Below are positions 1,465-8,891 of a stretch of 53,371 nt of DNA, one piece after another. The number at the start of each line of letters is the position of its first letter. Within the stretch, counting starts at the first letter, position 1. The translations under genes were made by a program, and so were the position numbers. This stretch comes from an uncultured archaeon (GTDB lineage Archaea > Asgardarchaeota > Thorarchaeia > Thorarchaeales > Thorarchaeaceae), in the NCBI GenBank assembly GCA_964558645.1, contig CAZLEV010000004.1, forward strand, positions 1-53,371, read 5' to 3'. The notes beneath the pieces are model-generated. The model did not search any database, was not told the origin of the DNA, and was given only the letters and a program-made list of their open reading frames with translations.

Positions 1465-1632
1465 TGTTGCATCCTCGGCAGCATGGTTGCTTGGCTCTCT
1501 CTTAATACTGTCCATCATGAGAAAGACACAGTTGAAACGAGATCGCAATATCCCACGATGCGTCTTGAAAAGTCAAAACAGGCATCCCATCATCAAATGA
1601 AGGGATACTAATGACACACGGACTACGATGCT

Positions 1633-1668
1633 CTTCTGCAGCAACTTCTGCAGCAACTCCTGCAGCTG
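1633..1668. repeat. 12-bp tandem repeat x3 (CTTCTGCAGCAA, third copy degenerate)
   Basis: cttctgcagcaa cttctgcagcaa ctcctgcagctg read directly. Confidence 0.8.
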
Positions 1669-1950
1669 GAGGATGCTGTGACGCATCTCCTCAAACACGA
1701 GATGAAGTGAACTCCAGGCGGTTTCCCCGAAGCAGTGGTGCTTCCTGAGCGGCCTGAAACTTGCTTCAGATGTGATTCAGCCAGATATCGTTTGTGTGCG
1801 AGATGGCCGATTGTTAAGGTACGGACTCGTTCAGTGTCAGCAAAGCAGGCGTAACTGAAACCCAAGGCGAATTCGATCGGACACTGCTGACAGAAATCGG
1901 ATAGAGGGCGTTGGTTTCACTGTCTGTGAGAGGGGCAATTCTCGAGGAAC

Positions 1951-1960
1951 GCATATATAA
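1951..1960 (+). promoter_or_regulatory. Putative archaeal TATA box for the 2032/3017 gene pair
   Basis: GCATATATAA about 70-80 bp upstream of the ATG at 2032. Confidence 0.45.
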
Positions 1961-2031
1961 TCTCGAAGCGAAGGGGTCATGAGATTAGGAGAAGGACAGG
2001 AGTAATCATAGATATTAAGAAGAGAAGCAGT

Positions 2032-2988
2032 ATGAAGATTGTCACATTCTACTTAGTCCTCCCAGTGATAATCGTTGCAGCATTCATATTGCCATTTGCC
2101 AACTATCCGCAGTCTTCCAGTCATAGGCAGGATATGGTGGCCCCTAGAGGCTACAACTACCTGAAGTACATCCCGACAATTCCGCTGGGGCTGATGACTC
2201 CCGAATACAGTGGAGTACTGCGAGATGAGGTAGATGTTGTAACGGATGTTCTGCTAGGGCTGAATGAAGGGTATGGGAACCTCATCGAGCTGCATCTCAA
2301 GATAGGCTCGACTGCGACTGAGTACGGCTTAAAGACCCTACTGCGGGTAACGGAGCGAACACATGTTTCATCTCATGGACAGTACAGCTCATCAATGGGA
2401 TCATCAGGGGTTCAACTCTACGACGGATATGTGTATGCTAGTGATGTGTCGGCATGGTCGATCAGTAACCCCATGTCTGATCTTCTGTTCCTAAGTGCAT
2501 GTAATAGAATGGGATATGATGGCCATACAGAGTCAACTCTTGCCATGGAGATTAAACGTGTTACTTCAGTGGACATGGTGATAGGTTACAACAACGTTGT
2601 TGACTCGTATTCCTCAGTATACATTGCACACAAGTTCTGGTGGTATCTGACACGAGCCGCCGAGCCATACGGCGGGTTTGATGGGCACACATCGTTTGAC
2701 ATGGCAAAGGACGCCTGTCAGAATCACATCTACGCAATGGAAGCTGTTGCAGTGGGGGGTGCGGTTGTGCTTATAGCATGGATATGGAATTATTTTGCAG
2801 CCGAGAGCATCCTTGCCGCTATTCTAGGTGAAATAGCCGAGAATGCCCTCATGTTAATGACCATAGGGACTTGGTTGAATCTACAGCAGCAGACTTGTGA
2901 CGCTCTGGAATACTATGGAGAAACTGAAGTGCCGCCCCTCGTATGGACTGGTGGAGGCGATCCCTGGGGCGATGATCTGCCATTTTGA
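2032..2988 (+). CDS. Putatively exported CHAT/caspase-hemoglobinase-fold protein with a hydrophobic insertion
   Basis: N-terminal signal/TM segment. THVSSHG...GVQLYDGYVYASDV...DLLFLSAC gives the His-Gly and LSAC Cys dyad. VIGYNNVVD...KFWWYL and ALEYYG match downstream CHAT elements. Confidence 0.65.
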   Translation: MKIVTFYLVLPVIIVAAFILPFANYPQSSSHRQDMVAPRGYNYLKYIPTIPLGLMTPEYSGVLRDEVDVVTDVLLGLNEGYGNLIELHLKIGSTATEYGLKTLLRVTERTHVSSHGQYSSSMGSSGVQLYDGYVYASDVSAWSISNPMSDLLFLSACNRMGYDGHTESTLAMEIKRVTSVDMVIGYNNVVDSYSSVYIAHKFWWYLTRAAEPYGGFDGHTSFDMAKDACQNHIYAMEAVAVGGAVVLIAWIWNYFAAESILAAILGEIAENALMLMTIGTWLNLQQQTCDALEYYGETEVPPLVWTGGGDPWGDDLPF

Positions 2989-3016
2989 ACTATGACAGAA
3001 CGAGAGAGGGGATACA

Positions 3017-4357
3017 ATGTTAGAAGTAGCCTACTCCGAACGAACACTCGTACTGAGTATTGTTCTGAGTGTGATGCTCGCCACCGCATACCATCCGGTT
3101 ATCTCTCCTCAAGTGGGTTCACAGTTCGACCAATCTAGTGATGCTTGTGCTAGTACTCAGCTAGCCCCGGCGACCCACACAGTCACCAGAAAACAGGCTG
3201 TGATAGACTACACTGTTGCTCTGTACAGTGATGACGGCTATTTTCATGGCTATTTGAACGAGCCACCATGCGATGGTTTATTGGGTCTCCACCCGGGAGT
3301 CTATAGTGTCTATCGTGGACATGCTTCGCTGAAGGCACTGAATGCAACCCATCATGTTGATTGGAACGCACCAAGAGAACTGCTTTTGGGTCTAGTCAAC
3401 GGAGAGTCAGCTGCCCCAGAGTATCAAGGGTTGATAAACTTCACCCAACACATCAGTCCAGACATGTCGGCTCAGGCCACAGGTATGGCACTCATGCAAG
3501 ACCTCGGTTGTGTTGACCACATGGACACTGATCTAGTCATGGCGTGGGTGGCAGACCAGCAACTAGATGATGGAGGGTTTCAGACATGTGAGGATCTACC
3601 CCCGCGGACTAAACTCACGTATACATACTTCGCTGTTTCCGTTCTCGCTATGTTTGAATACCTTGATCTGATTGACCGTGATGCAGCCGAAAACTACGTA
3701 TTGAACTGCTGGAATGAGGATGGTGGATTCGGGCTCAGTCCCGGTCGTGAGTCCGATTCTGGCCTCACACCACTTGCTCTCATGACACTGCAGGCCCTTG
3801 GCAGAATGAGCGACCTTAATCACACCAAAGTGCTGCAATATGAACTCCAAGACTGGGATAATGAGACAGGATGTGACAGTGGGGGGATTGTCGGAACAGA
3901 GAGAGCCCTCTGGTCGTTTGATCTGCTTGGAGCATTAGACATCATGGACACAGAGAAGACGGTGGAGTGGATCCTCTCTTGCCAATCTCACATCGAGGGC
4001 GCATTCAGGGTCATTCCCGGGGATGACAGTGATAGACTGGAATTCTGCAGGGCGGCCATTCATGCACTTGAGATACTGGATTCGCTCTCGTCTCTAGAAT
4101 CCATGTTCACTGTTCAGAAGACGCCTGTTTGGGAGGTTCCCCAATGGTATCCAGATAAGATATCAGAAATCGGGACCACATCGGGGTCATCTCCGGCCTG
4201 GATGATTGTATTCCCTGATCTTAGCATGGTCATCGACAGTATTGTGGTAATCGCACCTCTATCGGTCTGTCTGGTTCCCTTGGCGTATGTCCTATACACG
4301 GACCGTCGTGAAAGAATCGAACGCAGACGAATCAAGAAGATGCGCAGCAAGGGATAG
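3017..4357 (+). CDS. Prenyltransferase/squalene-oxidase-repeat (GGTase beta-like alpha/alpha barrel) protein with signal peptide and C-terminal TM anchor
   Basis: Repeats QQLDDGGF, CWNEDGGFGLSPGRES and CQSHIEGAF; hydrophobic N-terminus; C-terminal TM followed by a basic tail (RRERIERRRIKKMRSKG). Confidence 0.8.
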   Translation: MLEVAYSERTLVLSIVLSVMLATAYHPVISPQVGSQFDQSSDACASTQLAPATHTVTRKQAVIDYTVALYSDDGYFHGYLNEPPCDGLLGLHPGVYSVYRGHASLKALNATHHVDWNAPRELLLGLVNGESAAPEYQGLINFTQHISPDMSAQATGMALMQDLGCVDHMDTDLVMAWVADQQLDDGGFQTCEDLPPRTKLTYTYFAVSVLAMFEYLDLIDRDAAENYVLNCWNEDGGFGLSPGRESDSGLTPLALMTLQALGRMSDLNHTKVLQYELQDWDNETGCDSGGIVGTERALWSFDLLGALDIMDTEKTVEWILSCQSHIEGAFRVIPGDDSDRLEFCRAAIHALEILDSLSSLESMFTVQKTPVWEVPQWYPDKISEIGTTSGSSPAWMIVFPDLSMVIDSIVVIAPLSVCLVPLAYVLYTDRRERIERRRIKKMRSKG

Positions 4358-4911
4358 GCTCGCTGTCCAGAACGGCCTACGCCAGTTTCGACATCGGCTC
4401 TGAGGACCAACAGGTACACTCTTCGTAGCGTGCCAGCTCACAAGTAGGTCTCATACCATTCATTGTAAGCTCTACATCGCTAGGCGACTGAGGGAAACAC
4501 CTCCAGAAACGACACTAAAGCAGCTCTAGAAGACCGCAGCATCTGTCAGCTCAATCTCAGTTTCGGATACTCGGGCAAAGGCTGCACGGACATATCACTT
4601 CCCTCGGATGATTGGTTACTTAATGTCGAGCTTCGTCCAAGTTTCCTGAAGCTATCTGTTAACCGCCTCTGATAACCTGAAAAATAGTGAATCGGATGGA
4701 CCCAGATCCTGTTCAGAAATCTGTAAATGCGGGACACTTCAGCGTGATGAGTCGCACATCATGAATCATGCATCGTATACCGGCTGACCCCCATCATCGG
4801 CAAATTGCTTCTATCTTGTCAGAAGAAGAATGATGAATCCCTGCTTGTCCTCCCGATTGGCTTGCTGTATGGATGTCAATCTAGTTCAACAGCACAATGG
4901 GTGATGCAAAT

Positions 4912-5310
4912 CTATCCGATTTCAAGTATGTCTTTCAGGACAAGGCGTATCTTCGTCAGCGGTCGCGAACTGATTCTTCCAGTTATGGACTCGATTCTGT
5001 CAGTGGACACTGCACGAATATTGTGATATAGTGCATATGAGTCGTTTCTCAGTCCGCCGTTCCTGTTCAGGGGTACTACCGTCCAGTAGTTTCTTGCAGT
5101 AGTGGTTAGTGGTACTGCTATGGCGATGGCCAGGCCGGAGCTTCCTCCCCTGTATTTGGTGGGCACTGAAACCACTACGTTCGGCCTCCTTCCACCTTGT
5201 TCATGTCCCACCGTAGGCTCTAAGTCCATGACGGCGATATCTCCGGGACTGACCGACTGCACTAGAACGTCACTCCAAGCCATCGTCATGAATTCGAATA
5301 TTGACTTCAT
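4912..5310 (-). CDS. mazF: PemK/MazF family endoribonuclease toxin (true start probably the GTG of VQSVSPGD, ~5262)
   Basis: GDI...LEPTVGHEQGGRRP.VVVS, VPLTT, DSYA...IRAVS..RI motifs; a GGAGTGA RBS lies just upstream of the GTG. Confidence 0.9.
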   Translation of the reverse strand: MKSIFEFMTMAWSDVLVQSVSPGDIAVMDLEPTVGHEQGGRRPNVVVSVPTKYRGGSSGLAIAIAVPLTTTARNYWTVVPLNRNGGLRNDSYALYHNIRAVSTDRIESITGRISSRPLTKIRLVLKDILEIG

Positions 5311-5416
5311 CGACTATCTCGAAATCTTCAGCGTTGGGTATAATCCCTCGGAGTTTCACTAGGCCTGTTCCCTGATAGTTCTGTTCAGCTAGGATTGCCA
5401 ACTGCGTTCTTATAAT
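5270..5416 (-). pseudogene. 3' remnant of a paralog of the 263-aa protein (5973..6764), directly upstream of mazF
   Basis: Translates IIRTQLAILAEQNYQGTGLVKLRGIIPNAEDFEIVDEVNIRIHDDGLE*, aligning to EILTQLVLLAEENQVSVRPVQIRGIVPDDEDFEINRESHLDT*. No ATG in frame before an upstream stop. Not in the ORF track. Confidence 0.75.
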
Positions 5417-5823
5417 CTGTTTCTTACAGTTTGGTGAGTGAACGTCACCTGTAAGAGACTTCTGCGTTCCACCCCTCCCCTGCCAGCGTCACCGCCCCCA
5501 GATATCCAGAGGACATCTGAGTCAGCAGGGGCATCGTCCGCAATCATGGGGATGGTATCCCTCCCACGGACCGGGTTTCCTTCCTCCTGTGCTTGCACCG
5601 GGGCATCACTCCCGGTCACAGTGAGGGTCTCTGCAGTACTTCCCACGGCGGGATCATCATCACTCATCTCGACCCCGTCGCCGACGTCGAGAAGGCTCGA
5701 TTGAGCATGGTGAACAGCCGCGGACTCTCCGGGACCTGATGGGATCCCCCGTATGGAGAGTACGGACCTCCGTCGAGAAGAAGAGATCTTCCCTCGGGTC
5801 TTCAGCCGCGAGCTCCGTGCCAC
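5410..5823 (-). CDS. Low-complexity hypothetical protein, possibly truncated
   Basis: 137-aa ORF with a basic N-terminus and acidic middle, preceded by an AGGTGAG RBS-like motif and a TTATATA box (~5870, minus strand). Confidence 0.35.
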   Translation of the reverse strand: MARSSRLKTRGKISSSRRRSVLSIRGIPSGPGESAAVHHAQSSLLDVGDGVEMSDDDPAVGSTAETLTVTGSDAPVQAQEEGNPVRGRDTIPMIADDAPADSDVLWISGGGDAGRGGVERRSLLQVTFTHQTVRNRL

Positions 5824-5972
5824 TGCACTGGCTCACTCACCTAGTCCGGTATGCTAGTCGTGACGGTGGTATATAATCTCCTCTCAGTATGGTTTCTTCA
5901 GGGAAAAACAAGCAAAAATCGGCCACATTTCTTACATGTGGGAACTTGGTTCTTTTGGAGAAATGTAAGATT

Positions 5973-6764
5973 CTAGGTATCTAGATGTGATTCTCTGTTG
6001 ATTTCAAAATCCTCATCATCAGGAACAATGCCTCGAATCTGTACCGGACGTACTGAAACTTGGTTCTCTTCAGCTAGCAGGACTAGCTGTGTCAATATCT
6101 CCTGAGTCCAGTCCCTCAGAAGCAATTCGAAATCCTCCATCGTTGAAGTGCTCAGTCGCAATCTGCTTCTGATTACGAAACCCACAAACACGACCATTGT
6201 CACGAAAAGTGAGATATTGAAAAGGAGAAAGGTCATCCCGGCATCCCCGTTCTGTTCCTTTGCCGCTGAAACAGCATCCGGCATATCTTCGGCGTCCGAA
6301 ACATCCAGCTCCATGAAGACGGTCTTCATTTTCTCGATGCTATTCTTCTTCATGTTGTCGGGTATCTGTGGCCACTGCTTGATTCCAGCAGAAAAGAGAC
6401 TGAGAAGGATAGCAAGGCTTCGAAGAGCATAGGCCATGTTCGCAGCTAGCACAGGGCTGTAGAGTCCTTCAGCTGCATCAAGAAAACTCTCTCTTCTGAA
6501 ATCTTCGATGGATGCTTTCAGTTTCGAAAGGGATTTCTCAGCCTGTCTGTGCGCCTCATCCAAATCAGCCAAGACTGTGTCGAATGAATCACGCAATTCC
6601 TTCTGAACTAGCTGCTTCAGTGCATGGCCTATCTGACCATCTCGCACCTCTTCAAGCAACTTGCGAAAGTCCTCATTTCCTTCGGGGTAGTCGGTGACGA
6701 CGATCGGGGGAACAAACATGGGAATTGACACTCTCTTTTCCCTCCGTTCACTAATAAGCGACAC
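5973..6764 (-). CDS. Helical hypothetical protein (263 aa), candidate MazF-associated antitoxin/partner
   Basis: Long ORF with coiled-coil-like and hydrophobic helices and an acidic C-terminal tail shared with the remnant upstream of mazF. Confidence 0.7.
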   Translation of the reverse strand: MSLISERREKRVSIPMFVPPIVVTDYPEGNEDFRKLLEEVRDGQIGHALKQLVQKELRDSFDTVLADLDEAHRQAEKSLSKLKASIEDFRRESFLDAAEGLYSPVLAANMAYALRSLAILLSLFSAGIKQWPQIPDNMKKNSIEKMKTVFMELDVSDAEDMPDAVSAAKEQNGDAGMTFLLFNISLFVTMVVFVGFVIRSRLRLSTSTMEDFELLLRDWTQEILTQLVLLAEENQVSVRPVQIRGIVPDDEDFEINRESHLDT

Positions 6765-7454
6765 TGGGAACTCACAGCGGCAGTGAAATCAGTATTCTCT
6801 CTGTATAAAGCATTATGGTTTGTGTATTGGCTGATATTCCCCGCGAAGCGATGGATAGACGAAATCCGGATGATATCTGTTCGTGAGAAACCTCCTATGA
6901 AATGGCTGATTTGCAGAATTTACTCCTGCAAGGGAGCCAGGATAGGTCTGCCCCCCACATAGATCGGGATATCGCATCCCATATACTATCTCCTGTGTCC
7001 ATTGCGGAGGGGCATTCTCACTGGAATTGCACAAGAGGTGTTCAGTTCTCTCAAACAATGATTTCGTTTATCACTTGGGCTCAGCTGGCAGTCTGCGAGA
7101 AGCAGGTGTGTGGCGGAGTCATACTTGACGAGTCGAGGTCACTCACAGGGAGAAACCACCCTGAAGTGTTGAGATATGAACGCTAGTATGAGCACTCATA
7201 AACTCAGTGACTCCGACCAGCCCAAAGAAGGAGTTCTCTCAGAAGTTGGCTGAACAAGCAGCTCTTTGCCTCCCTCAAACCTGTGAGAGATGACTCGAAC
7301 CCAAAAGAGTGCCAGATGATCTTGCACAGATTAGAGGCGCTCCAGCCAGAGCTCAGGGCATCCACCCGAAGAAATGCGTGCCGCGGTGACGAGTCTCTGG
7401 TCAGAGAAGTCGCACAATTTATATGATTCTGGGCGAAAGAAGGAATGAGGGTGC

Positions 7455-7676
7455 GTGAATATGTCATCTGATTCGAATGGCGCAATTAAACTAACGCCAT
7501 TGCAGTTAGGTTTCCTGATGATAGGATGGGTCTTGTTCATCATCGGTTGGGTCATCCCAGACCTTCCAAGTATACTCCTTCAACTCTCTGTCATACTCAC
7601 CGCTACGATCTTGCTTGTTATAGGAGTGATTCTTGGATTGGGATGGGTGTTCAAGAAGATGAGCCAGGAAGAATGA
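7455..7676 (+). CDS. Small two-TM membrane protein
   Basis: 73 aa with two hydrophobic helices and a KK tail. Confidence 0.55.
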   Translation: MNMSSDSNGAIKLTPLQLGFLMIGWVLFIIGWVIPDLPSILLQLSVILTATILLVIGVILGLGWVFKKMSQEE

Positions 7677-7937
7677 TGCGGTCGGGAAAGATACTAAGAC
7701 GAACAATCTCATCCTCGCGTCCTTTGGACGTGCGGCATTCCGGGGTCGAAGATAGCACAATCAACAATGAACAGTAGGTTCCAATCACTCCGGGCGAAGA
7801 AGAATGCCTGAAGCCAGAATCAAGGGCGGTGATGGAGAACCTTCATTTCAAGTCTGCGGATTGGATTCATATGGACAGTGGTTAGCTTGCATTCACTCAG
7901 ATATGTCCGTCGGCTCGCCAGATGTGCATACTTCACC

Positions 7938-8123: not shown

Positions 8124-8891
8124 TCAAATCCCGACGCTGAAGAGCACCCACAGTAATGTTAAGATTCCTACCGCAAGAGTAGATATACCAACCAGAGTGC
8201 GCACCTGATGCTGTTCCAGCCTTGCTGTGGTCAGTGCAGAGAGTGGCGCCGCCAGTATCGCTCCGATGGTGATAGTGGCAAAGAGGTGCAGATTCGTGAT
8301 TCCGTTGATAAAGAAGTGCAGAAGGAATCCCACGATGCAGATTAGTCCCTCCACGAAGACCGTGATAGCCACGGCAGCACGGGGGGCTATGTCGCTTAGA
8401 ATCTGTCCGCTCACGGTCACAGGGCCATAGCCACCGCCAGATATTCCCTTATTGAAGGCCGCGACTGAGCCCACGAGAACGAGCTGTCTGCGAGAATGGA
8501 CCCTGCGCCCACCCCCACCTACCAAGATCCAGACACCCATGACACTGACAATAAGGGCGATGTAAATCTTCACGAAGAGCTCAGGGAGCGCAATGACCAA
8601 GAGTGTTGAGATTATGACACCCACCAGTCCAGTAGTGACTAAGATGGTGAATGAGTCCCGCTCGCTGTCGCTCTCAATGAGATTGAAGTTTTCGAACTTG
8701 TGGTGGAAGAGCGAACACAGCAGACCTGCCGCGAATTGACTGAACAGGAGAACAGGGAGGAACTCGATGGGAGCGAAACCAAGGATCAGGAGTACAGGGG
8801 ATAGAATCGTGCCAAAGCCCATCCCGAGGGTGGCGTCGATATACTCGCAGATGAAGGCAAGAACAATGAGAAAAATGGCAGTCTCAAACAT
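8124..8891 (-). CDS. Sulfite exporter TauE/SafE family membrane protein
   Basis: EYIDATLGMGFGTILSPVLL and FNKGISGGGYGP motifs; about 8 TM segments. Confidence 0.9.
   Translation of the reverse strand: MFETAIFLIVLAFICEYIDATLGMGFGTILSPVLLILGFAPIEFLPVLLFSQFAAGLLCSLFHHKFENFNLIESDSERDSFTILVTTGLVGVIISTLLVIALPELFVKIYIALIVSVMGVWILVGGGGRRVHSRRQLVLVGSVAAFNKGISGGGYGPVTVSGQILSDIAPRAAVAITVFVEGLICIVGFLLHFFINGITNLHLFATITIGAILAAPLSALTTARLEQHQVRTLVGISTLAVGILTLLWVLFSVGI

What the first reader, a model, noticed from the sequence alone, without database searches (positions are those of the whole stretch)
4912..6764. MazF with an unrecognised large partner: hidden remnant upstream of the toxin matches the tail of the 263-aa gene
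Seen in sequence: there is no classical small MazE/AbrB/RHH gene before mazF. Instead, an unannotated minus-strand frame (5270-5416) reads TQLAILAEQNYQGTGLVKLRGIIPNAEDFEI, clearly homologous to TQLVLLAEENQVSVRPVQIRGIVPDDEDFEI at the end of 5973..6764. Its TGA stop sits inside the GGAGTGA RBS of mazF, the usual antitoxin-toxin coupling geometry. Established knowledge: MazE-type antitoxins neutralise MazF through an acidic C-terminal tail. Inference: the ~260-aa helical protein family is a new, unusually large MazF antitoxin or sensor. The cognate copy was truncated, and the intact paralog (or a short peptide starting at the in-frame TTG) may neutralise the toxin in trans.
Basis: partly seen in the sequence, partly recalled or inferred. 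Interest (0 to 1): 0.75.

Follow-up and report, generated by a model that had tools for sequence, protein, structure and literature searches.

The report
MazF toxin with large split partner
In this Thorarchaeota (Asgard archaeon) genome, a MazF RNA-cutting toxin is paired with a ~255-aa helical protein instead of a small MazE antidote; that protein occurs only in this archaeal order, nearly always directly upstream of a MazF gene or its remains, and here a small transposon has cut its gene in two, which explains the 'hidden remnant'.

Summary
The frame 5270-5416(-) matches residues 221-255 of the 263-aa ORF (tblastn E 2.6e-6). It is 45/48 identical to the tail of an intact 254-aa ortholog whose stop overlaps its mazF start by 14 nt.

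The idea of a large MazF partner is strongly supported by gene neighbourhood. All 13 MazF loci found in related genomes have a ~245-290-aa (one 333-aa open frame) homolog, whole or split, directly upstream. Partner and MazF are the only genes conserved across 14 loci. The family has 22 cluster representatives among 1.84 billion. It was found in 18 of 77 genomes of the window's order and in none of 224 other Asgard genomes. It has no Pfam, PDB or fold match.

The 'truncated copy plus intact paralog' reading is wrong in detail. This is one gene, interrupted at ~5979-5412 by a ~570-bp tnpB-less derivative of a TnpB-type insertion sequence with more than 10 copies in the genome. The upstream piece is a recombinant: the 5' half is A-type and the 3' half B-type. 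The same element family has also split the partner gene, 9 nt away, in another genus.

Binding and neutralisation are untested. An unrelated haloarchaeal large MazF partner was noted before.

The parts
5973..6764 (-). Partner gene (263 aa from GTG 6764; conserved MFVPP start at ATG 6719). It is all-helical with one strongly hydrophobic TM-like helix (aa ~177-199), the family motif E..LLRDWTQE..TQ (aa 213-226) and an acidic tail. It is a mosaic: the 5' ~370 nt are A-type (85-98% to L007) and the rest is B-type (72-95% to L008). It lacks the last ~8 residues of the B-type tail; the final 1-2 codons and the TAG stop come from the inserted element.
5412..5979 (-). Non-autonomous (tnpB-less) derivative of an IS200/IS605-type TnpB element. 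The left end runs ~5979-5848. The GC-rich (62%) structured right end (omega-RNA-like region) runs 5847-5412. The right junction is ambiguous within 5413-5407 because of ATAAGAA microhomology.
   Evidence: At least 10 long copies (76-90% identity) and ~8 solo 71-bp ends in the same genome. Alignment of copies. In copy L010 the repeat directly follows a 558-aa ORF with the Cas12f1-like TNB domain (PF07282, 2.8e-12). RNA fold z = -4.0. Both junctions are seen independently in Logan assemblies (L005/L006 end at 5870/5854; L052 starts at 5441).
5270..5411 (-). Detached A-type tail of the partner gene (codons ~221-end, plus the TGA stop). It is still an open frame. The first canonical start is TTG at 5401 (43 codons). 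It ends in the GGAGTGA that precedes or overlaps the mazF start.
4912..5283 (-). mazF (123 aa from ATG 5283, overlapping the remnant by 14 nt as in the intact ortholog). Alternative starts are GTG 5262, 10 nt after GGAG, and ATG 5310. The frame is intact and the Arg-Pro and Thr positions of solved MazFs are kept.
4740..6980 (-). Extent of the two-gene cassette. It is collinear with one contiguous block in the same-genus genome G001 (L032 2786-4334), apart from the extra 5414-6062 (B-type tail plus element). Beyond these limits the neighbourhoods differ.

Best explanation
The locus is a two-gene, type II-like toxin-antitoxin cassette specific to Thorarchaeia. A ~255-aa all-helical protein of an undescribed family is translated just ahead of, and coupled to, a MazF endoribonuclease, and most likely acts as its antitoxin (inferred, not shown). 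In this genome a ~570-bp tnpB-less derivative of a TnpB-type insertion sequence sits between the body of the partner gene and its original (A-type) tail. The upstream piece is a recombinant that carries a B-type 3' half and tail, itself clipped by the left end of the element. The simplest history is two crossovers between two element-bearing alleles, one in the conserved mid-gene and one inside the element (inferred). The outcome is a nearly full-length partner protein, a detached tail ORF and an intact mazF separated from the partner's promoter by the element. MazF is then either neutralised in trans by the recapped partner or poorly expressed.
For: Linkage: 13 MazF loci in the window's genome and 11 of 24 related genomes (nine other genera) all have a partner homolog, whole or IS-split, immediately upstream. 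All 9 partner loci in reference genomes have a MazF or a MazF remnant immediately downstream. Five of ten further loci have an intact MazF directly downstream. The partner stop overlaps or lies 40 nt or less before the MazF start, often inside ..GGAGTGA. Only these two genes are conserved across 14 loci, whose flanks all differ. Decay is asymmetric, as expected for antitoxin/toxin: MazF is dead or missing beside an intact or near-intact partner in L008, L041, L026, L046 and L047. A broken partner with an intact MazF is seen only in the two IS cases, and both keep the tail ORF. MazF is a bona fide PemK/MazF with conserved catalytic positions. IS insertion. Mosaic. The intact A-type state (L007/L020) has the tail 92% identical in DNA to the remnant plus mazF.
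Against: There is no direct evidence of binding or neutralisation. The partner has no DNA-binding or known antitoxin domain. The acidic tail is not universal: net charge is 0 or -1 in two subfamilies with intact MazF. In G013 the tail remnant has no usable start codon yet mazF is intact, so either the tail is dispensable or mazF is silent there. The related loci are kin, so the perfect linkage is not made of independent observations. The recombination history is inferred from three alleles only, and no B-type locus carrying the element was found.
Confidence: 0.65

Rival explanations
1. The partner is not a simple binding antitoxin. It is a membrane-associated sensor or regulator of a defence-type module: it tethers or gates MazF through its helical body and releases it on an envelope or infection signal.
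For: A conserved, strongly hydrophobic helix is present (Kyte-Doolittle 19-mer mean 1.96-2.75 in 18 of 20 members). The protein is large, with a confident fold that matches nothing known (pLDDT 80). Body distances track MazF distances at least as well as tail distances do (partial r 0.77 against 0.31). The truncated 211-aa body coexists with an intact MazF in G013.
Against: There is no signal peptide, and flanking charges are inconsistent. AlphaFold packs the hydrophobic helix into a compact bundle. No hit to PADLOC defence models. The mirror-tree signal is confounded by shared ancestry.
Confidence: 0.2
2. In this genome the detached tail is itself the working antitoxin: a 43-aa peptide made from TTG 5401, or from read-out transcription from the element's right end. 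The recombinant 263-aa protein would be irrelevant to MazF control.
For: The remnant is still open and differs at only 3 of 45 residues from the intact ortholog's tail (dN/dS 0.16). It keeps the coupled GGAGTGA junction with mazF. TnpB-type elements are known to transcribe their guide RNA outward across the right end (general knowledge).
Against: Eight substitutions are too few to show constraint after the insertion. The equivalent remnant in G013 has no canonical start codon until its last ~10 codons (read from the DNA shown). No promoter or transcript data exist.
Confidence: 0.15
3. The arrangement is an assembly artefact: the MAG assembler joined two different loci through the repeated element.
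For: Logan contigs from two samples break inside the element.
Against: Other copies of the element are 90% identical at most, so collapse is unlikely. Both junctions are reproduced at 100% identity in an independent assembly. Both flanks are collinear with one contiguous block in G001. G013 shows the same kind of split on one contig.
Confidence: 0.03
4. The roles are reversed: the hydrophobic helical protein is a membrane-active toxin and the MazF-like protein counteracts it.
For: The hydrophobic helix; weak structural similarity to alpha-pore-forming toxins and CAMP factor at noise level.
Against: MazF is the gene that decays while the partner stays intact, which is the opposite of the expectation. 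The upstream, coupled position is the usual antitoxin position. MazF keeps its catalytic residues.
Confidence: 0.03

Closest known systems
MazEF / PemIK / Kis-Kid type II toxin-antitoxin systems
   Same: The toxin is a PF02452 MazF/PemK with conserved Arg-Pro and Thr positions. The upstream gene is translationally coupled or overlapping. Most partners end in an acidic, disordered tail. It is a two-gene cassette in varying genomic contexts with frequent toxin pseudogenes.
   Different: The partner is ~255 aa and all-helical, with a TM-like hydrophobic helix and no AbrB/SpoVT or RHH DNA-binding domain. It has no sequence or fold similarity to MazE, PemI or Kis. It is restricted to one order of Asgard archaea.
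Panacea-domain antitoxins (PanA, DUF4065; Kurata et al. 2022, PMC8832971)
   Same: This is a precedent for larger, non-classical antitoxin domains discovered from conserved two-gene neighbourhoods and acting by direct binding.
   Different: No PF13274 hit in any of 20 family members. PanA pairs with dozens of toxin folds, whereas this family was seen only with MazF.
IS200/IS605-family TnpB elements and their non-autonomous derivatives (PATE/MITE-like)
   Same: The insert is homologous to the region that follows a TnpB-like gene in the same genome. It is multi-copy, GC-rich and structured (omega-RNA-like), with short shared ends.
   Different: This copy has no tnpB. A 6-nt CAGGAG lies on both sides of the G013 copy; that could be a target/cleavage motif or a target-site duplication, and the latter would be atypical for IS200/IS605. 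No TnpA was sought.
Haloarchaeal MazF with large DUF8098 partner
   Same: An archaeal MazF coupled to a large uncharacterised upstream protein instead of MazE.
   Different: No Pfam family of any kind reached significance for the 20 members scanned, and the scan's sequence look-up found no look-alike. The two therefore appear unrelated.

Membership tests
MazF/PemK toxin (PF02452) | Pfam model match above the gathering score | tested here: met
   60.1 bits against a cut-off of 23.1, covering model positions 2-108 of 109. Matches solved MazF9, E. coli MazF and B. subtilis EndoA at E 3e-7 to 5e-6.
MazF/PemK toxin (PF02452) | Catalytic Arg (in the Arg-Pro motif) and Thr of the active-site loop (E. 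coli R29/T52, from general knowledge) | tested here: met
   R33-P34 and T60 are invariant in the 12-sequence Thorarchaeial MazF alignment. They align to ..RPAVVVS.. and ..VPVTS.. of MazF9.
MazF/PemK toxin (PF02452) | Sequence-specific endoribonuclease activity and toxicity | not testable with these tools
   Needs expression and cleavage assays.
Type II toxin-antitoxin module | Two adjacent co-oriented genes, antitoxin first, tightly coupled and conserved as a pair | tested here: met
   13 of 13 MazF loci have the partner upstream. 9 of 9 partner loci in reference genomes have MazF or its remnant downstream. The overlap is 14 nt or the gap 40 nt or less. No other gene is conserved.
Type II toxin-antitoxin module | The antitoxin protein binds and neutralises the toxin | not testable with these tools
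   Needs co-expression rescue and pull-down. No computational result obtained here bears on it.
MazE/PemI/Kis antitoxins (AbrB/SpoVT-type or RHH) | N-terminal DNA-binding dimerisation domain of a known antitoxin family | tested here: not met
   No Pfam, NCBIfam or PDB-sequence match for the window protein or for the 20-member family. The predicted fold is all-helical.
Panacea (PanA, PF13274) | DUF4065/Panacea domain | tested here: not met
   Not among the families matched by any of 20 members at E up to 0.05.
IS200/IS605-type TnpB element (non-autonomous derivative) | Homology to the end region of an element that encodes TnpB | tested here: met
   Window 5847-5432 is 90% identical to the sequence following the TnpB-like ORF of L010. 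That ORF hits PF07282 at 2.8e-12, and PF01385 only weakly.
IS200/IS605-type TnpB element (non-autonomous derivative) | Multiple dispersed copies in the genome | tested here: met
   24 matches in the genome, including at least 10 long copies.
IS200/IS605-type TnpB element (non-autonomous derivative) | Insertion 3' of a short target motif without target-site duplication | tested here: inconclusive
   The empty site (L041) compared with the filled site (L021) shows CAGGAG on both sides of a 556-bp insert. Several right ends are followed by ARGAR. This is compatible with a cleavage motif or with a 6-bp duplication.
IS200/IS605-type TnpB element (non-autonomous derivative) | A Y1 (TnpA) transposase available in the genome | not tested
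   Not searched.

The most novel reading that the evidence does not exclude
The Thorarchaeial partner is a membrane-anchored sensor antitoxin, built like an anti-sigma factor. Its helical body and conserved TM-like helix would hold MazF at the membrane through the LLRDWTQE helix and tail, and release it on an envelope or infection signal. The purine-rich codons just after that motif are a recurrent landing site for a TnpB-type element. Insertion there produces natural 'split antitoxin' alleles that are tolerated or repaired by recombination.
Probability: 0.2. Interest if true: 0.75.

Novelty: new variant of a known kind. Interest (0 to 1): 0.55.

Why it matters
MazF is among the best-studied toxins, but its control in archaea, and in Asgard archaea especially, is almost unexplored. 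This work defines an undescribed partner family restricted to one order. It has a confident fold that matches nothing known, a membrane-like helix and one sharp conserved motif, and it gives clear constructs to test: full-length protein, body 1-220, and tail. It also supplies natural experiments. A TnpB-type element has split the partner gene just before its tail on two separate occasions, and one recombinant allele has been 'recapped'. Together these can show which part of the protein is needed to keep MazF in check. For annotation, it removes an apparent orphan toxin and explains a pseudogene-like remnant.

Tried and rejected
(1) Complex prediction of two MazF copies with the 48-aa remnant, using own alignments A4 and A5, returned 'no answer' (score 0.00). 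It is not evidence either way.
(2) Foldseek against the PDB (best E 0.3) and VIA-align against 48,161 chains (best Z 8.0, within the helical-bundle noise stated by the tool) gave no fold assignment.
(3) Pfam, NCBIfam, PADLOC and PDB sequence profiles on the partner, its family and its tail gave nothing above threshold.
(4) Rfam at E up to 1 and ARAGORN on 4700-7000 found nothing, so the insert is not a known intron, riboswitch or tRNA-derived element.
(5) No tandem repeats of the type III antitoxin kind.
(6) Mirror-tree correlations cannot separate tail binding from body binding, because all parts share one phylogeny.
(7) Short family members (63-124 aa) were checked as possible natural mini-antitoxins. 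Those with DNA available lie at contig ends or in decayed loci.
(8) The idea that the insert is a self-splicing intron restoring the gene was considered and dropped. It has no Rfam intron match, and in the window its left flank is not the matching exon.
(9) A simple tandem duplication of the tail was rejected. The two tails belong to different alleles: A-type is 92% identical in DNA to L007, and B-type is about 80% identical to L008.

Full report
**What is at the coordinates**

On the minus strand the region holds four features.
- An ORF at 5973-6764 (263 aa).
- A 62% GC stretch with no credible gene.
- A short open frame ending at TGA 5272-5270.
- A PemK/MazF gene at 4912-5310 (PF02452, 60 bits). 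It is the only one in the 3.63-Mb, 93%-complete MAG.

The short frame matches residues 221-255 of the 263-aa ORF: tblastn gives E 2.6e-6, and the next hit in the window is E 1.2.

**What the remnant is**

The 263-aa protein has only three close relatives among 5.8 billion proteins. One of them, P0002 on Logan contig L007, is an intact 254-aa gene. Its last 14 nt overlap an intact mazF. Its C-terminus is 45/48 identical to the window's remnant. At the DNA level:
- L007 1024-1691 equals window 5413-4740 at 92% identity.
- L007 143-1059 equals window 6980-6063 at 80% identity.
- The same holds for the same-genus reference genome G001.

The remnant is thus the original 3' end of the gene. Window ~5414-6062 is extra DNA relative to the intact state.

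**What the extra DNA is**

Window ~5979-5412 is a repeat.
- The same genome holds at least 10 long copies (76-90% identity) and about eight solo 71-bp right ends.
- In copy L010 the repeat directly follows a 558-aa ORF with the Cas12f1-like TNB domain of TnpB (PF07282, 2.8e-12).
- Aligned copies share a ~130-bp left end and a ~435-bp GC-rich right part. The right part folds better than all 100 shuffles (z = -4.0).

I read it as a tnpB-less derivative of an IS200/IS605-type element, with the right part being the guide-RNA (omega-RNA) region. No Rfam family or tRNA matches it.

It is unlikely to be an assembly artefact.
- Logan contigs L005 and L006 reproduce the left junction.
- L052 reproduces the right junction, starting at 5441 and 100% identical over 3,530 nt.
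- Those contigs break only in the repeated core.

**Why there are two tails**

The rest of the extra DNA (6062-5980) is a second tail of a different allele.
- Over its first ~370 nt the window's partner gene is 85-98% identical to the A-type allele (L007).
- Over the remainder it is 72-95% identical to the B-type allele of L008.
- The B-type tail is cut about 8 residues short by the left end of the element, which supplies the last codon or two and the TAG stop.

The locus therefore reads: A(1-~140), B(~141-259), element, A(221-end), mazF-A. The simplest history is two crossovers between an A-type and a B-type allele that each carried the element, one in the conserved mid-gene and one inside the element. 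This is inference. A B-type allele carrying the element was not found.

**A second, independent case**

In genome G013 (a Thorarchaeota MAG of another genus, MazF 63% identical), the same element family is inserted after ..LLRDWAQE. That is 9 nt from the window's right junction. It leaves a 211-aa truncated partner, a 53-codon open tail remnant and an intact mazF. The matching empty site (L041) shows a 556-bp insert with CAGGAG on both sides. The purine-rich codons after the conserved motif seem to be a preferred target.

**Is the large protein MazF's partner?**

- Searching 40 related genomes with the window's MazF found 12 more loci in 11 of 24 genomes of the same family. Every one has a ~245-290-aa (one 333-aa open frame) homolog of the partner, whole or IS-split, directly upstream.
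- A search with the partner alignment found 9 loci in reference genomes titled Candidatus Thorarchaeota or Promethearchaeota. All have a MazF or a MazF remnant directly downstream.
- Of ten further loci, five have an intact MazF downstream, two have a degenerate one, and three have none (two intact orphan partners and one fragment).
- The partner's stop lies within mazF or 40 nt or less before its start. It often sits inside ..GGAGTGA, followed 7-13 nt later by ATG.
- Across 14 loci only these two genes are conserved, and the flanks differ.

**Distribution**

An exhaustive profile search of 1.84 billion cluster representatives found just 22 family members, none longer than 277 aa. In 301 Asgard genomes the family is present in 17 of 76 genomes of the window's family and 1 of 1 of a sister family. 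It was not found in 224 genomes of 28 other families.

**Direction of decay**

MazF carries nonsense codons, deletions, or is missing beside an intact or near-intact partner in L008, L041, L026, L046 and L047. In L031 it carries a TAG beside a partner with an aberrant tail. A disrupted partner with an intact MazF occurs only in the two insertion cases, and both keep the tail-coding DNA. This asymmetry is what a toxin/antitoxin pair predicts, and it argues against reversed roles.

**What the partner looks like**

- AlphaFold2 on a 20-sequence alignment gives a confident all-helical bundle over residues 30-236 (pLDDT 80, pTM 0.75) and a low-confidence tail.
- Nothing in the PDB resembles it beyond helical noise, and no Pfam, NCBIfam, PADLOC or PDB sequence profile matches.
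- Invariant or near-invariant residues are N109, P162 (in a ..PDA.. motif), N183 and the block E213-L216-R217-D218-W219-Q221-E222-Q226.
- One helix (~177-199) is as hydrophobic as a transmembrane segment: the 19-residue hydropathy mean there is 1.96-2.75 in 18 of 20 members. The flanking charges are inconsistent, so membrane anchoring is plausible but open.
- Tails are acidic (net -5 to -11) in nine of eleven intact pairs, but neutral in two.

**How it most likely works**

- Shown: a conserved, coupled two-gene cassette; an intact MazF with catalytic Arg-Pro and Thr; a split and recombinant partner gene.
- Inferred: the partner neutralises MazF by direct binding. The tail, the LLRDWTQE helix or the body could each carry that function.
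- Inferred for this genome: MazF is held in check by the recapped 263-aa protein in trans, by a tail peptide from TTG 5401, or simply by reduced expression behind the element.
- dN/dS between the window and G001 is 0.40 for mazF, 0.16 for the remnant and 0.10 for the A-type 5' part. The remnant value rests on only eight substitutions.

**Comparison with known systems**

The toxin is a member of MazF/PemK. The module works like a type II MazEF/PemIK system, but the partner is not a MazE, PemI, Kis or Panacea family member, since those tests were not met. Large non-classical antitoxins found from conserved neighbourhoods have a precedent in PanA (PMC8832971). A 2026 survey of Asgard defence systems reports MazEF only in Lokiarchaeales (PMC13700489). 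I did not find this Thorarchaeial family in the literature searches I ran or in earlier notes of this scan.

I rate it a new variant of a known kind and moderately interesting. It would become more interesting if the membrane-sensor reading proves true.

Noticed in passing
L010 (G000:C26:34054-37468), ORF 1613-3289(-); copies listed: The genome carries a family of TnpB-type elements. There is one copy with a 558-aa TnpB-like ORF (PF07282), at least 9 tnpB-less copies of 400-530 bp, and about eight solo 71-bp right ends at 93-97% identity. In each copy the two ends carry the same short repeat (TGTAAGAAA or TGTCAGAAA).
   Followed up: partly
L021/L033 (G013:C16, JAWOEX010000041.1), element at L021(reoriented) 805-1360: The same element family splits the MazF partner gene in another Thorarchaeota genus, 9 nt from the window's insertion point. 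CAGGAG lies on both sides, and the empty site is seen in L041.
   Followed up: yes
L026 (G012), L031 (G017:C178), L041 (Logan SRR29060563), L008 (Logan SRR7048218): MazF genes are inactivated by single nonsense codons at conserved W, Q or R positions, or by deletions, while the upstream partner gene stays open. This is the typical toxin-first decay pattern.
   Followed up: partly
window 7398-7723 and 4-982 versus L032 4471-4794 and 4921-5899: In the same-genus genome G001, sequences that lie upstream of the partner gene or ~4 kb beyond mazF in the window sit directly downstream of mazF. The neighbourhood of the cassette is therefore rearranged between close relatives.
   Followed up: no
window 8124-8891(-) and L041 1401-2315(+), also L021: A TauE/SafE-family gene lies within ~0.3-1.4 kb of the cassette in the window and in the G013-type loci, though on different sides. 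This may be coincidence or a shared variable region.
   Followed up: no
L046 (G021:C13) and L047 (G008:C63): These loci hold orphan partner genes (254 aa, intact or nearly so) with no MazF detectable downstream. G008 has a second, complete pair elsewhere in its genome.
   Followed up: partly
window 5414-5421(-), junction of the element's right end and the remnant: The junction creates ..GATTATAAG.., a TATA-box-like sequence about 100 nt upstream of the first in-frame ATG of the mazF frame (5310). It might act as a new archaeal promoter for mazF. This is pure speculation and untested.
   Followed up: no
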